A stretch of DNA of 64,000 bases from contig OX597815.1 in the NCBI GenBank assembly GCA_951406725.2, positions 200,446,001-200,510,000 on the forward strand. The letters run 5' to 3'. The first letter of the stretch is position 1. Every line of letters begins with the position of its first letter. A model generated the notes under the pieces. That model was given only the letters and a program-made list of their open reading frames with translations, did no database searches and was not told where the DNA came from. Shown in pieces: positions 846-22,229 of the stretch. The DNA comes from Octopus vulgaris (lineage: Eukaryota). The position numbers and the translations under genes are program-made.

Positions 846-929
846 TGCAGCTGAAGAGCGTTGTCTTTAAATTGATGCAATGATTGCATAGTTCAATTAA
901 ATAGAGTCACTTGAAACGATCGTACTACA
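846..929 (+). ncRNA. Degenerate type I hammerhead ribozyme motif with long stem II (Penelope-like remnant)
   Basis: CTGAAGA (851-857), ~55-nt hairpin insert (AATTGA/TCAATT, TGCAAT/ATTGCA), GAAAC-GATC-GTA (913-924); stem I TGCAG/CTACA with one mismatch. Confidence 0.5.
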
Positions 930-1151
930 TTACTACTTCATATCCTGTTGCCAATATATATAGTTATATATACACATATATACATACATACATTAGTGTA
1001 TAAAAATTTATACAGGGAGTGAAGAGCACCAAGTGGACTCCTTCCTTGCTAAAAAGAGCAGTCAAAATCCCAAACCACGAGAAACATTCTTATTTAGAGC
1101 ACTTTGATTGTAAGCGCGGAGGACAAATTGAGAAAATTAAAACATCAGTTA

Positions 1152-1247
1152 ATCCTATACTCCGAAGTTTCACCAATAATGATTAAATAACCCAATGAAT
1201 TAATTAATCAGCTGATTAATCGTCCATACGTGGATCTTCAGCAGAAT
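1152..1247 (-). ncRNA. Type I hammerhead ribozyme motif with long stem II
   Basis: Minus strand ATTCTG-CTGAAGA-TCCA...TGGT-GAAAC-TTCGGA-GTA-TAGGAT; stem I pairs with two G-U wobbles; near-palindromic stem III. Confidence 0.55.
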
Positions 1248-1441
1248 CACTGAGGATACATAATTATAAAACTAGACAACCTATGGAAAACACAAGCGGG
1301 AAGACACGTGCGCACTTATTTTCATCTTTATACATCAGGAATTCAAATTAAAATATCCACAACCAACGCGCCGAGCCAGAATAGTACAGTAGTGAATAAA
1401 TTCAACAGCGAATTACCTGACCCACCAATTAAATACTTAAA

Positions 1442-1965
1442 TCTATATATATAAAACTGTAGTTGTGTGAGTGTCTGTCCCCTTCGATTTAGATTCCTAA
1501 CTACTCCCATATTTTGCGGTGCAGTTTAACCAAATTCGGGTATCTTATAGTCGTGATTCATATCAAGCCCGTCTGCGTATTAGCGCGCGTCTACGATGAG
1601 TCTACGATTTTAAAAATAATTTAACATCATTTTTTATTCCATTTTAATGCATAATTTTTCGTGTGTCGATGGCGGCGGAGATGGCGTCCATGGTTACACC
1701 TGCACCTGTTTGCTTCTGCCCCTTATTCCCTCCCTAGTGAAGCTGTGGGGAAGGGAGTGTAAGGAAATCAACGTCGTAAAGCATTGTCAAGGAGACCAGC
1801 GTTCTTTTAGAACAACGACTTCATGGTTTGAAGACACCAAAATTACCATAATTTTTTATTCCATTTTTAATGCATTTTTTTGCTATTTTTTTGCTATAAC
1901 TCACTAAAAATGCTTATATAGTTATTTCCCTTACAAACCCGAGCAACGCCGGGCGATACTGCTAG
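1442..1965 (+). mobile_element. Non-autonomous Helitron
   Basis: 5' TCTATATATATAAAA, subterminal hairpin CCCGAGCAACGCCGGG, 3' CTAG, inserted between A(1441) and T(1966), no TSD. Confidence 0.85.
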
Positions 1966-2069
1966 TATATAAATACAAGAGTAAATTTTTTTAAATAATA
2001 ATTTATACTAGTAGTTAGTATGTGTAAAATAAAGTCCGTAGAAATAAATATTTTCATAATATATATGAG

Positions 2070-17450: not shown

Positions 17451-20137
17451 TATATATATATATATACATATACATCTTCCATGTGCATTTCATAGTATGG
17501 AATTTGCAATATCTGTTGGTAGCGTGAATTAACATATAAAAACCAAATATGCGAGTGTGCAACGTATTTACAGAACATATATTTACATAACAAATTTCTA
17601 TAAGAATCTATCAATATCACCTTTCTTATATTCATATCGTATATCCTATCCTGATCAAAAATTGCCTTAACATTCTTTCTCACACATTCACTGCTTGATA
17701 TACGAATATTGTTCAATTGCCACTTCTTCATGATTTCTATAACTTATCTTCACTTTACCCTATATCTATCTATCTATCTATCTATCTATCTATCTATCTA
17801 TCTATCTATCTATCTATCTATCTATCTATCTATCTATCTATCTATCTATCTATCTATCTATCTATCTACCGTACGAAATGTTTAGACACAAAGACATTCC
17901 TCTCTGGCCAATCGTTCCTCAACTTTTTCAAGTACCACTTCAAAAGGAAGTTCAGAATAGAGAAAGAATCTTTGTCATGAAAATTTCTGTAAAAGATGGG
18001 TGAATGCCACAAAGATGGCATGCGTGAATGACGAAACCACTTTGAGCATAATCCTGTAAATCCAAGAGAGAGAGAGAGAGAGAGAGAGAGAGAGGGAAAG
18101 AGAGAACGCTGCTTTACTCTCATGTGTTTCTTTCCGTACCTGAGGTTACCGTAGTCGTTTTCGTAGGTTCTTCTTTCCCGGGATAAACCTGATCTGTGTT
18201 ACATTTTTTACCCCCCCTCCTCCTTTTGGGAAATCATTTATAAACGTATTATTGTTATTTCGCTGTTTACACGTTCCAAGCGCATTCGATCCCTTTTGAT
18301 AGTATTTTTTATTTCTCTTTCGATAAGAAATGTTCCACATTGTATTGTCCCTTCTTTTTTCGGTCCTGCGTGGCTAATAAAGAAATCTATCTACGTTTCT
18401 ATTTATCTATATCTTTCTCTCTCTCTCTTTCTCTCTTCCCTCTCTCTCTCTCTATCTATATCTATACATCTATCCATATATATATATATGCATACGCATT
18501 TATATGCCTATTATTTGTATCTGCATGTGTGTGGGCATTGTGTTCATTGCCATACAGCATGCCAAACCGCATTGGCCTATTCCGTCAAAACGCGAATAAA
18601 AGTATAATTTGCAAATTTATAAGAAATATAAAAAAAAGTTAAACAATTCTAACGTTGATCTCTTCAACTAAGCCCTTTAGGCTCTCCAAGACATTATGTT
18701 AGAATACCTGCAGTTCAATGAATGAAACGAGTATAAGAAAATATGAATATGAATTTGTATTTTTTCGTGTCATAGCGTATCTTCATTTAATTTTTCGTTA
18801 TAGTGCACTGCATTTGATTTGAAATAAATATAATCATTGCACAATGAATACATCATATATTTAGATGCGCTCCTAATTCAGTTGCATTTTAGTATTCCGG
18901 TCCATAAAAAAGGAATTTTGTTTACTGACCCCTTTAATATCGATAAAAGTAATTAAGCGTTAGGCATATATTTCGAGTTGATCCCAGTATATCTGATCGT
19001 TACAGCTTTTTGAGGCATTTGGTCGTAATAAGATCACGTGGCCACCAAGCAGTCACTGAAATACACTGCCCCGTCTGCGCCTATATGTTTAAAAATTCTC
19101 TGCGTAATATATATTACAATATACTATCTTAGATTTATTGTATGCTTCTAAAACATACAATGTTGCACCGATATATTTATTAATTATTTAATCATACACC
19201 TGATGACGGAACGGTATGAAAATAAGCCTAGCAATATATAAGCTAACTTCTAGTTTGTTTTGGTTGTAATAACGATTGACAGCAATTTCTCGTCAGAAGG
19301 AAGTTGAAAGGATACTGCTCCTCTTACGAGGGTGAAAATGATGTGAAAATATATTCGAATAATATACTTTTTTTCTGTTTGGAAAAAAAAATACCGAGAT
19401 ATATTCTTTATGTTCAACTCTTAACAACAATAAGTTTAACAAAAAAAAATATATATTTCAATTATTTTAAAACAGTCTTATGTTACTAATAAACGCTTTG
19501 CTGGGCAAAAATTTTTGTTATTAATCAAGGTGACGACCAATGAGAATTACGTAAATTAGATTAGCCGTTACAGCTAATTTCTGTTTGTTGTCGAAATAAT
19601 GAGTCATATACATTCAGAGAAAGTGAAAAGTATGAGGATGTGCTAGTGATTGTGCGTGAGGTCAATAAACGGCAAAATATTTCAAAATGATTTTCATTAG
19701 TTTTTCTCGTTGCAAAATGAATAAATAACAATATAAGTATATATATATATTATATATTATATATATATATATATATATATATATATATATATATATATAT
19801 ATATATATATATATATATATATATATATATATATATATATATATATATATATATTTGTATGTATGTGTGAGTTTCCGTGTGTTATATATATATATATATA
19901 TATATATATATATTTGTATGTATGTGTGAGTTTCTGTGTGTTAGTGTTTGCGCGCGCGCGTGTGTGTTAATTAGTGTGCGTGCGTGTTCTCTCGCGTCTG
20001 ATACTGTGTGTATATCTGTGTATGAGCACAAATATTTCTCAGCAATACAGAGAATATTGGTTTCTGTCCAAACCCATCGGTGTTAGCGTTCAAATCATAG
20101 TATAGCATCGCATTTTGAGAGATTGATATACATGCAA

Positions 20138-20252
20138 CACTACTACTACTACTACTACTACTACTACTACTACTACTACTACTACTACTACTACTACTAC
20201 TACTACTACTACAACAATAATAATAATAATAATAATAATAATGATAATAATA
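20138..20252. repeat. (CTA)n-(CAA)-(TAA)n trinucleotide array
   Basis: Direct reading. Confidence 0.95.
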
Positions 20253-21561
20253 GCGTATATATGCATGTATATGTACATACATATACGTGCCTACATAAAA
20301 GTATGCATAAATATGTATATAGGTATGTATATATATATACACACATGTAGTTACAAACACGTACACACATACACGAACGTATACATATATATATATATAT
20401 GTATGTATGTATATGTATATGTATATACATATATATATATATATGCATGTATGTATGTATATGTATATATATATGTATATACATATATATGTGTATGTAT
20501 ATGCATATATATAAATATACATATATATATATGCATATATATGTATATATATATATATATGTATGCATCCTTATATATATATATATATATATATATATAT
20601 ATATATATATATATGCGTATATCTGTTTATACATATATGTATGTATATACATATTATGAAGCCTGATTTAATTTTGAAGAGAGTCTTTAGCTAAGTATAC
20701 TCATTATAATGCATCAGCAGATGTTTGAAATAACCACTCTAAATATCTACAATATTGAATACCTAATTCTCATTTCCGTCTTATGCTTAACATTGATTAT
20801 TAATTAAATATCCTTCCCCCAAATGAGAAGAAAAAAAAAAGGAAGGCATAATTCAGCGAGCGGAAGAAAGAGGATATGAGGCGAATGAATGATACAGCAA
20901 CATTGTTAATGACAGGAAATAAATAAAGCTAATTCTGAAACAGGAAATCAACACACGCAGATGTTAATCGCCATTTTAGACTAGAAATAGCCTTTGGCTG
21001 TAAGTTGATCGGGATTCCCTCTATTTGTCGAAACAATTCTGCTATGCATACGGCATGTGTTGGATTTTATTCCTTGAAGGAATATGCACACATTTATATA
21101 CATATATATGCACACACACATACACACACACACACACACACACACACACATATATATATATATATATACATATATATATACAGGCAAATACGCATATGTC
21201 TATACACACACAAATACATATAAGTTTGTACACACGCATATTTAAAAGACCGATAGAAAAAGTACTAGGCTAACACAGGATTAATGCTGGGACCGATTTC
21301 TTCCACTAAGACCCTTTAAGGCGGTGCTGCACAATGGCCACATTCAAATAGCTGAAATAAATAAAAGGATATATATATATATATATATATATATATATAT
21401 ATATATAATTTCAGCAAAACAATTAAGATTCATATGAATTCAAATTAATTCAAATGAATATGGTACTTAACTTAGATGCACCAGAATTATTTATGGTATT
21501 AACCATAAAATTATGTGGGGTGATTATAACCAAGAAAAAAGTAACAAGAATGGATCAGTAG

Positions 21562-21648
21562 TTTAGTACAGTTGTTTCATACTAAGAACATTTTATTTAA
21601 AGCTGCAAATATTACAGCAAATATAATGTCAAGTATTCATCAGCTAAA
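21562..21648 (-). ncRNA. Type I hammerhead ribozyme (left arm)
   Basis: TTTAG-CTGATGA-ATACT...AGTAT-GAAAC-AACT-GTA-CTAAA. Confidence 0.8.
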
Positions 21649-22147
21649 TCACATATATGTTTTCCAAACATCCTAGAGAGTGTAATTATCCTTATGAAGA
21701 ATTAGGAGTGAGTTCTATGAATTTGAAGTAAGATTATAAGTAGATTTTATATGTTTTCCAACAATGCACAGTTTTTAAAAAAAAAATTATTCCCTCTTAC
21801 TACCCCACTCCTTTCCTCCCATAATGTCCTTTACTTTGGCTAAACCTACCCAGCTGTCTTTCTTGCTACTATAAAATTCTGTCTGCAACAGTTAGATGTG
21901 AACTGAACCGGTGTGTGACCAGTATCTTTCCTCATGTCTACTGGAACTTAATTCTGCATATTTATGGATGGATTTACCTTCTCTGAAAAGTTAATAATCA
22001 TTTTAAAAACATTTTTTTTTAAAACTGCGCATTGTTGGAAAACATATAAAGTCTGCTTATAATCTTACTTCAAATTCATAGAACTCACTCTGAATACTTC
22101 ATAAGGATATTTAAACTCTCTAGGATGTTTGGAAAACATATATGTGA

Positions 22148-22229
22148 TTTAGCTGATGAATACTTGATATTTGCTGTAATATTTGCAGCTTTAAATAAAA
22201 TGTTCTTAGTATGAAACAATTGTACTAAA
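22148..22229 (+). ncRNA. Type I hammerhead ribozyme (right arm)
   Basis: Stem I TTTAG/CTAAA, CTGATGA 22153-22159, stem II ATACT/AGTAT with inner GCTGTAA/TTGCAGC hairpin, GAAA 22213-22216, palindromic stem III ACAATTGT, GTA 22222-22224. Confidence 0.85.

What the first reader, a model, noticed from the sequence alone, without database searches (positions are those of the whole stretch)
846..22229. Several unrelated type I hammerhead ribozymes with unusually long stem II
Seen: five motifs from four sequence families (846-929+, 1152-1247-, 15368-15445-, 21562-21648-, 22148-22229+) share one layout: stem I, CUGANGA, a ~50-70-nt structured stem II, GAAAC, a (near-)palindromic stem III, GUA, stem I. 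Their stem sequences differ entirely, which amounts to covariation. Established: Penelope-like elements (PLEs) and retrozymes carry type I hammerheads whose palindromic stem III supports dimeric cleavage, usually with a short stem II. Inference: a diverse PLE/retrozyme-type system with an extended-stem-II ribozyme that length-limited motif searches would miss.
Basis: partly seen in the sequence, partly recalled or inferred. Interest (0 to 1): 0.72.

Follow-up and report, generated by a model that had tools for sequence, protein, structure and literature searches.

The report
Penelope-transposon hammerheads with extended stem II
The five motifs are predicted self-cutting hammerhead RNAs at the broken-off ends of Penelope-like jumping genes (shown for three of the four families, likely for the fourth) in what is likely an octopus genome; their second stem spans 51-63 bases instead of the 10-29 found in relatives from other sources, and about 28,000 such motifs lie in this genome.

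Summary
Observation confirmed: a relaxed scan finds exactly these five motifs (0.045 expected). They are 3' ends (pseudo-LTRs) of 5'-truncated Penelope-like elements in (TA)n. Families at 846, 15368 and 21562/22148 lie 1.0-1.8 kb behind Hydra-clade RT/endonuclease ORFs in longer genomic copies (one intact, 835 aa); for 1152 no ORF was found. 21562/22148 are one inverted insertion, and the 846 and 21562 families are homologous, so 'unrelated' is wrong. Genome-wide, 27,925 exact-core motifs have a 40-100 nt stem II segment (control 540) against 8,937 with 10-39 nt. Across 43 sequence clusters stems I, II and III covary, including the centre of the stem III palindrome, which can pair only in a dimer. 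All 50 hammerheads beside Hydra-like ORFs in metagenome contigs have 10-29 nt. The arm is mostly one hairpin, varies in length within lineages and is no better conserved in sequence than its flanks: likely tolerated loop growth, not a new domain. Cleavage is untested. Hydra hammerheads are published; this arm length was not found in print for them. This scan noted the same class before on other DNA (11 findings).

The parts
167..953 (+). Family B: 5'-truncated 3' end of a Hydra-type Penelope-like element (3' UTR + pseudo-LTR), ending at a TA run
   Evidence: 71-79% identity over 720-840 nt to L128, L130, L203, L219; Hydra-type endonuclease 1.6-1.8 kb upstream of the motif in L203, L205, L210, L212, L219
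846..929 (+). Hammerhead motif B: core 851-857, 55-nt stem II segment, stem III CGAUCG, predicted cut after 924; one mismatch in stem I
   Evidence: 1,654 first-look candidates, 40 scored
994..1440 (-). Family C: old, short Penelope-like 3' end with long tail, tail-to-tail with B across a decayed TA run (954-993); no ORF found in relatives
   Evidence: 78% over 488 nt to L065; no linked ORF in the 30 + 30 (partly overlapping) loci
1152..1247 (-). Hammerhead motif C: core 1241-1235, 63-nt stem II segment, 8-nt stem III CUUCGGAG, predicted cut after 1158
   Evidence: stem I changes on both sides between subfamilies seen
15255..15951 (-). Family D: 5'-truncated 3' end of a very young Hydra-type element, long-tail end next to (TA)n
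   Evidence: 99.3% over 718 nt to L122, which carries the RT-endonuclease ORF; intact 835-aa ORF in L434
15368..15445 (-). Hammerhead motif D: core 15441-15435, 51-nt stem II segment, stem III CAUAUG, predicted cut after 15372
   Evidence: core intact in 37 of 39 copies examined
21407..21784 (-). Family A, inverted half with the long (159 nt past the cut) tail, next to (TA)n
   Evidence: 94.8% to L134; two discrete 3' ends in the family
21562..21648 (-). Hammerhead motif A (inverted half): core 21643-21637, 58-nt stem II hairpin, stem III CAACUG (decayed palindrome), predicted cut after 21567
   Evidence: (z -4.0)
21787..22260 (+). Family A, direct half with the short end, followed by (TA)n 22261-22343
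   Evidence: 92.8% to L134; Hydra-type endonuclease ends about 950 nt before the motif in L005, L009, L029
22148..22229 (+). Hammerhead motif A (direct half): core 22153-22159, 53-nt stem II segment (5-nt deletion), stem III CAAUUG, predicted cut after 22224
   Evidence: (z -2.1)

Best explanation
The motifs are the pseudo-LTR hammerheads of Hydra-type Penelope-like retrotransposons, left in (TA)n as 5'-truncated ends, and they likely cut the element's tandem transcript in pairs, two palindromic stem IIIs pairing with each other. In family D the cut would fall 200 nt before the ATG of an 835-aa RT-endonuclease ORF and again about 4.4 kb later, giving a unit-length RNA. Inserted copies run through the cut site to one of two fixed ends 38-159 nt further on, so the reverse-transcribed template was likely uncut or re-joined RNA, primed at two internal sites; inverted pairs carry one end of each kind. 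The 40-100 nt stem II is mostly one imperfect hairpin that likely grew by repeated expansion of loop II in more than one lineage; selection keeps it paired, so that the core can fold, but not its sequence or length.
For: Shown: exact-core motif counts 23,968 (40-70 nt), 3,957 (71-100), 8,937 (10-39) against reversed-pattern controls 251, 289, 318. One random member of each of 43 clusters with stem II of 40 nt or more: stem I pairs 1-3 Watson-Crick in 41, 36, 28 of 43 (shuffled 15.1, 13.6, 11.6); stem II pairs 2-8 in 22-35 of 43 (10-13); centre pair of stem III 29 of 43 (10.8), although adjacent bases cannot pair within one strand. Stem III is +2.4 to +2.7 kcal/mol as a hairpin but -6.4 to -11.5 as a duplex for the four palindromic versions. 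Inner hairpin of the A/B lineage has changes on both sides (AU to CG in 4 of 16 rows). ORF links: D, A, B; D, A, B group together (SH-aLRT 99, quick tree). Hydra signs in the D protein: DKT, CxCx5C, CxxC..CxH, C-terminal YIG. TA run within 260 nt of the motif in 38 of 40 A and 37 of 39 D copies, at two discrete distances. Length series inside sequence lineages: 38-75 nt and 20-61 nt with the outer stem kept. Stem II no better conserved than flanks among copies (B 91.5% vs 89.9/91.4; C 84.1% vs 84.7/89.0) while the core is (94.6%, 95.4%). 53-54 nt stems also in the branch that holds 10- and 31-nt families. Established: PLE hammerheads cleave weakly and as dimers (PMC4209133), uncut RNA is the main template and RT starts at two internal sites in an anole PLE (PMC11167929).
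Against: No cleavage data; the RNA-like runs were contigs, which show no ends. Only 1 of 5 window copies folds into stems I and II as a monomer and cofolding two copies gave no hammerhead dimer as the lowest-energy state. G10.1-C11.1 is present in only 6 of 43 clusters and the first stem II pair is at chance level. 24 of 43 long stems have z above -2. Clusters share ancestry, so the shuffle p-values overstate independence. Most clusters have no ORF in the fetched flanks (links in 6 of 58), and family C has none. The tree is a quick one with five rows under half filled. That long stems make up 76% of the counted motifs could mean an advantage and not mere tolerance.
Confidence: 0.68

Rival explanations
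1. The extended stem II is a selected functional domain: a binding handle for the element's RT-endonuclease or a host dsRNA protein (for instance ADAR), or a substitute for the loop I-loop II contact, that tunes when the ribozyme cuts.
For: Pairing is kept out to at least pair 8 and in the inner hairpin; long stems are 76% of counted motifs and absent in 50 of 50 relatives from metagenome contigs; an anole PLE hammerhead needs its protein (PMC11167929, passages).
Against: Length runs from 20 to 98 nt, also within lineages; sequence is no better conserved than flanks; intact, high-copy Hydra families in the same genome have 10- and 31-nt stems; stem I does not extend beyond 4 pairs on average.
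Confidence: 0.17
2. The motifs no longer cut: they are kept as folded landmarks for RNA dimerisation or RT priming, and the catalytic core is conserved for structure only.
For: Inserted copies cross the cut site; in the anole PLE, catalytic mutants insert normally in vitro and no RNA-seq ends mapped to the cut (PMC11167929, passages); an intact young family has CCGAAGA in place of CUGANGA.
Against: The full core and GUA are kept across dozens of diverged families at about 50-fold over control and above flank level within old families.
Confidence: 0.1
3. Some families (C above all) are non-autonomous retrozyme-like repeats that replicate as small circular RNAs with the help of Hydra proteins.
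For: Family C has no linked ORF and several loci hold copies 500-700 nt apart; retrozymes are argued to derive from PLE pseudo-LTRs (10.64898/2026.07.22.740005, abstract and passages).
Against: A, B and D continue into coding elements; C is old (72-80% identity), so long copies may simply be rare; C ends in (TA)n with a tail and shows inverted pairs in 4 of 24 loci; no tandem array of the motif in 1-24000.
Confidence: 0.04
4. Chance matches in AT-rich repeats.
For: AT-rich window; weak folding of 3 of 5 copies.
Against: 5 against 0.045 in the window; 23,968 against 251 in the genome; covariation.
Confidence: 0.01

Closest known systems
Hydra clade of Penelope-like elements and their hammerheads (Craig et al. 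2021, PMC8557442; includes Hydra-1_Obim from an octopus)
   Same: RT with C-terminal endonuclease, DKT, CxCx5C linker, CxxC/CxH, (TA)n targets, inverted 5'-truncated copies, type I hammerhead near the 3' end with palindromic stem III and often a non-G-C first stem II pair.
   Different: Stem II segment 51-63 nt here (40-100 in the genome) against at most about 26 nt in the paper's Hydra rows (File S2, counted by eye; Hydra-1_Obim 23); units of 4.4-4.8 kb with 1-2 kb 3' UTRs against 'generally under 3 kb'; tails of 74-121 nt against the 30-40 bp the paper gives for PLE tails; RWA for RWK in family D.
Minimal and atypical PLE hammerheads (Cervera and de la Pena 2014, PMC4209133)
   Same: Type I, in pseudo-LTRs, palindromic stem III, short stem I (4-5 bp), larger than usual helix II, many sequence families per genome, pairs on opposite strands 100-700 bp apart.
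   Different: Their helix II is 6-8 bp; here an imperfect hairpin of about 15-30 bp. G10.1-C11.1, called highly conserved there, is rare here.
Spike-moss PLE-X1 hammerheads of the Chlamys group (PMC8557442, File S2)
   Same: Stem II segments of about 54 and 48 nt in a PLE: a published precedent for a long stem II.
   Different: Other clade, endonuclease-less, rDNA-targeted, two single cases marked as deviating; no palindromic 6-nt stem III.
Non-LTR retrozymes (PMC7229834; 10.64898/2026.07.22.740005)
   Same: Type I hammerheads in high-copy animal repeats, dimer-type stem III.
   Different: Those are non-coding tandem repeats of about 170-400 nt with canonical short stem II; A, B and D are ends of coding elements.

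Membership tests
Type I hammerhead ribozyme | Core CUGANGA, GAAA, NUH in type I order | tested here: met
   5 of 5 window motifs
Type I hammerhead ribozyme | Three helices around the core | tested here: met
   Covariation of stems I, II, III across 43 clusters; single window copies are partly decayed
Type I hammerhead ribozyme | G10.1-C11.1 pair (typical, not universal) | tested here: not met
   G-C in 6 of 43 clusters; many published Hydra rows also have U-U there
Type I hammerhead ribozyme | Loop I-loop II tertiary contact | tested here: inconclusive
   Stem I pairs 5-8 at chance level; no pseudoknot search was made
Type I hammerhead ribozyme | Site-specific self-cleavage | not testable with these tools
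   Only contigs were available
Hydra-clade PLE | Single ORF, RT then C-terminal GIY-YIG-type endonuclease | tested here: met
   835-aa ORF in L434, colinear with 30 homologues; Pfam gave no RT or GIY-YIG match, so the call rests on motifs and on reading against the paper's Hydra proteins
Hydra-clade PLE | DKT in place of DKG | tested here: met
   ADKTG in family D
Hydra-clade PLE | RWK motif | tested here: inconclusive
   RWA in family D, KWK in L171, RWK in the two short-stem families and most homologues
Hydra-clade PLE | CxCx5C linker; CxxC and CxH around E and N; no CCHH | tested here: met
   CNCRCASEC, CQLC..E..N..CIH in D; same linker in A and B fragments
Hydra-clade PLE | Insertion into (TA)n | tested here: met
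   38 of 40 A, 37 of 39 D, 23 of 30 C copies (the tally for B was cut from the output)
Hydra-clade PLE | Generally under 3 kb (descriptive) | tested here: not met
   About 4.4 kb (L434) and 4.84 kb (L171) between cut sites
Hydra-clade PLE | Placement in an RT tree with the published reference proteins | not tested
   The reference proteins were read in the supplement only; the trees hold database homologues
Hydra-clade PLE | Family C (1152) linked to such an ORF | tested here: inconclusive
   No ORF in the loci
PLE (general) | Pseudo-LTR tandem and inverted 5'-truncated copies, optional tail | tested here: met
   Inverted pairs in 10 of 30 A, 9 of 30 D, 4 of 24 C loci (some loci overlap); two 3' ends; direct repeats around ORFs in L171, L434
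Naiad PLE | N-terminal endonuclease, no canonical hammerhead | tested here: not met
   Endonuclease is C-terminal; the 'half core' of Naiad_Ovul as read in the supplement is not this motif
Non-LTR retrozyme | Non-coding tandem units of about 170-400 nt | tested here: not met
   A, B, D run into ORFs; no such array in 1-24000; open for C

The most novel reading that the evidence does not exclude
Octopus Hydra elements evolved, more than once, a hammerhead subclass whose 40-100 nt stem II is a functional module: a docking site for the element's RT-endonuclease or an editing-sensitive dsRNA switch that times self-cleavage against priming. With about 28,000 copies in dozens of covarying families it would be one of the largest hidden ribozyme sets in an animal genome and a ready-made natural mutational scan for the open question of what PLE hammerheads do.
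Probability: 0.17. Interest if true: 0.72.

Novelty: new variant of a known kind. Interest (0 to 1): 0.43.

Why it matters
It shows that ribozyme censuses with short loop limits miss most hammerheads of this genome (76% of counted motifs have a stem II segment of 40 nt or more; Rfam found none in 7 loci tested), and it warns that PLE families reported as lacking hammerheads should be re-searched with long spacers. Family D is young (99% identity among copies), has an intact ORF, a mapped cut 200 nt before the ATG and two fixed 3' ends, so it is a clean system for testing the still unclear role of PLE hammerheads (dimer cleavage, protein help, circular template, translation from a 5'-OH end). 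The natural length series lets one ask whether stem II length matters. The biology in outline (PLE hammerheads, Hydra clade) is known.

Tried and rejected
Rfam at E up to 5 on the window: 283 matches, the 150 listed were microsatellite-driven miRNA and snoRNA models, no hammerhead among them; 133 were not shown. Repeat finder was swamped by TA runs. Polyadenylation signal inside stem II (AAUAAA seen in A, B, D): 5 of 43 clusters against 6.2 expected, rejected. Naiad link through the paper's 'HHR_half_core' label: rejected on domain order and on reading Naiad_Ovul. Neptune link for an 81-nt family: the endonuclease fragment lies downstream in one duplicated locus (L290/L293, 99.4% identical), not accepted. 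ORF for family C: not found. Expression: no RNA holder on record; four guessed-RNA runs hold the family D end as contigs, which cannot show ends, strand or editing. Cofolding gave no hammerhead dimer as minimum-energy state. The careful tree did not finish; the quick tree is cited; the endonuclease-only tree was weakly supported. Luense et al. 2017 (PMC5785218) is not held; its dimer result is known to me only through the review PMC6765202.
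Full report
1. Observation. The five motifs are present as described. A scan for C(U/C)GANGA, 8-110 nt, GAAAC, a palindromic stem III, GUH and at least 3 of 4 stem I pairs returns exactly these five on both strands; 200 shuffles give 0.045 on average. The segments between CUGANGA and GAAA are 55, 63, 51, 58 and 53 nt. Single copies are partly decayed and only two of five stem II segments fold clearly better than shuffles. Rfam reported no match at gathering score in 7 loci, 4 of them holding the window's motifs and 3 holding short-stem relatives, so Rfam misses short-stem relatives as well and its blank is not specific to the long stem.

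2. Host. The window lies in a 2.8-Gb animal genome. The closest animal-named relatives of the linked protein are from Argonauta hians, and an intact family resembles Hydra-1_Obim by eye; an octopus is the likely host.

3. Each motif is a genomic repeat. First-look candidates: 945 (A, 21562/22148), 1,654 (B, 846), 97 (C, 1152), 1,499 (D, 15368); 40 were scored in each. D copies are 99% identical, A 88-95%, B 81-86%, C 68-88%. Homology ends at (TA)n on the 3' side and fades at variable points on the 5' side. Long D copies carry an RT-endonuclease ORF ending about 1.65 kb before the motif; L434 holds an uninterrupted ORF of 835 aa from an ATG 200 nt behind an upstream copy of the motif, and a damaged second copy about 4.4 kb on. 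Long A copies have the endonuclease about 950 nt upstream. For B a walk upstream gave Hydra-type hits in 8 of 20 loci, in 5 of them as endonuclease pieces on the strand of, and 1.6-1.8 kb before, the motif. For C no linked ORF turned up.

4. Clade. The D protein has DKT, CxCx5C, CxxC and CxH and a C-terminal YIG endonuclease, the signs listed for the Hydra clade (PMC8557442 section 11; alignment). It departs in RWA for RWK, in asparagine-rich inserts and in unit length. Pfam does not recognise it. A Hydra-like protein query has 34,632 first-look candidates in the genome and 63 of the 64 scored matches have no stop. In a quick tree D, A and B group (SH-aLRT 99) in a branch with the Argonauta proteins; families with 10- and 31-nt stems lie in the other branch, together with a family whose stem II is 53-54 nt (five rows under half filled). 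A family with a 16-nt stem II lies behind an ORF that I take for Neptune-type from recalled motifs.

5. Genome-wide scale. CTGAWGA-N-GAAACNNNNGTA matches 8,937 times with N 10-39, 23,968 with N 40-70 and 3,957 with N 71-100; reversed controls 318, 251, 289. An 8-nt stem III pattern adds 595 against 61. The counts need exact cores and so are floors; a few places count in two bins. Long stems are 27,925 of 36,862 (76%), about 10 per Mb; four such matches in this window is on the rich side but not special.

6. Structure. From all loci fetched by then, 194 distinct pattern matches (no structure filter) fell into 58 clusters. With one random member per cluster, the 43 long ones show Watson-Crick pairing far above shuffled partners at stem I pairs 1-3, stem II pairs 2-8 and both free pairs of stem III; stem I pairs 5-8 and stem II pair 1 are at chance. 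37 of 43 fold as one hairpin; median z -1.7 (19 below -2) against +0.2 (3 below -2) for downstream flanks. The centre pair of the 6-nt stem III is complementary in 29 of 43 (36 with G-U; 10.8 expected). Those two bases are neighbours, so their complementarity makes sense only between two molecules or two motifs: this is the main support for dimer cleavage, with the energies. Clusters are related by descent, so the p-values are optimistic. A and B belong to one lineage with compensatory changes in stem I and in the inner hairpin.

7. Is the long stem special to this genome? Of 78 Hydra-like loci from metagenome contigs (the best of 451), 50 have a hammerhead by a scan that allowed 125 nt; all 50 have 10-29 nt, and 28 have none in the DNA held. 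The Hydra rows of the paper's File S2 reach about 26 nt; two spike-moss PLE-X1 motifs reach about 54 and 48 nt. So long stems have a precedent in PLEs but were not seen in Hydra elements elsewhere.

8. How it arose. Related motifs form nested series that keep the outer stem and lengthen the loop: 38, 39, 44, 68, 69, 75 nt in one lineage, 20-29, 49, 51, 61 nt in another, 51-61 nt in D (flank similarity supports the first series, and only links parts of the second). Among copies the core is better conserved than flanks in B and C but stem II is not; in young A all parts are equal (98%). With long stems on both main branches of the tree, repeated growth of loop II under selection for pairing is the simplest reading. 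That hammerheads tolerate large insertions in stem II is my own background knowledge.

9. Mechanism. Shown: position of the motif in the pseudo-LTR, 200 nt before the next ATG in tandem; two fixed 3' ends (A: 38 and 159 nt past the cut; D: 43 and about 117 nt); in the A and D inverted pairs printed, one half has the short and the other the long end, as in this window. Inferred: dimer cleavage releases a unit RNA; since inserts cross the cut, the template was uncut or re-joined; the two ends mark two RT start sites, as measured for an anole PLE (PMC11167929), here further apart than the 30-40 bp reported. A role of the cut in starting translation, as shown for viral hammerheads (PMC13725137), is possible and untested.

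10. Literature seen. PMC8557442: passages, section 11, supplement parts 2 and 24 and four searches in it (figures S7, S8 not seen). PMC4209133: parts 1-2 of 4 (descriptor figure not seen, so its exact length limits are unknown to me; PMC8557442 gives a 7-17 nt spacer for its core search and says relaxed descriptors were also tried). PMC11167929, PMC3088659, PMC6765202, PMC7229834, PMC13725137, PMC13282606: passages; the last, a repeat annotation of Octopus vulgaris, has no occurrence of 'ribozyme', 'hammerhead' or 'Hydra' in its main text. 10.64898/2026.07.22.740005: part 1 of 5 and passages; supplements closed. Eight searches found no paper on long-stem-II hammerheads in cephalopod or Hydra elements; subscription papers are not covered. 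The scan's own notes hold 11 findings with the same reading, 8 shown; my reading was fixed before I saw them, and I took from them only the 'handle' idea, which my tests do not favour.

11. Verdict. Real, large and well supported as a structural variant of a known element-ribozyme pair; function of the extension probably modest. New variant of a known kind; interest 0.43.

Noticed in passing
window 1441-1965: Element with a TC start, ATCTATATATATAAAA-type 5' end and a hairpin plus CTAG 3' end, cutting off family C; looks like a non-autonomous Helitron (recalled pattern, not tested).
   Followed up: no
window 50620-52752 (+): 710-aa open frame with RVT_1 (6.7e-28) and zf-RVT, a non-LTR retrotransposon; near-identical frame in L267; a second fragment at 52906-53505 (-).
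   Followed up: partly
window 9378-10423 (+): 3' part of a CR1/RTE-like LINE ORF, also seen in L121 and L133.
   Followed up: no
window 16548-16694: Long perfect-looking hairpin (Rfam MIR4239 model 54.8 bits, below its cut-off) with a 28-nt tandem repeat; probably a transposon foldback.
   Followed up: no
window 22390-23180: Repeated and inverted copies of a ~300-nt unit (ATAATxGGAGCCATCGCTC...CACGGGCAATGCAATG) right of the A insertion; unexplained repeat.
   Followed up: no
L191, L192, L193 (222 nt after the ORF): Intact high-copy Hydra family (717-aa frame) whose hammerhead core reads CCGAAGA instead of CUGANGA, with a 31-nt stem II and GUU; all copies printed share it.
   Followed up: partly
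L270:2533-4437 (-): 635-aa Neptune-like PLE ORF, 2 kb before a short hammerhead whose stem I and first stem II bases resemble those of a Hydra lineage (L171); possible exchange of pseudo-LTRs between clades.
   Followed up: partly
L121, L122 (3' UTR of family D): The 1.65-kb 3' UTR is built largely of microsatellite-like tracts (TG, TA, TTTTA); the element may itself spread the simple repeats in which it inserts.
   Followed up: no
L418, L422: Hydra family with 53-54 nt stem II, 8-nt stem III (CUGAUUGG) and a 3' UTR of only about 340 nt, in the branch of the short-stem families.
   Followed up: partly
L290, L293: Two loci 0.97 Mb apart on contig C1 are 99.4% identical over 3.1 kb: segmental duplication or assembly duplicate.
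   Followed up: partly
window 50426-50525: Run of 100 N (assembly gap or withheld stretch).
   Followed up: no
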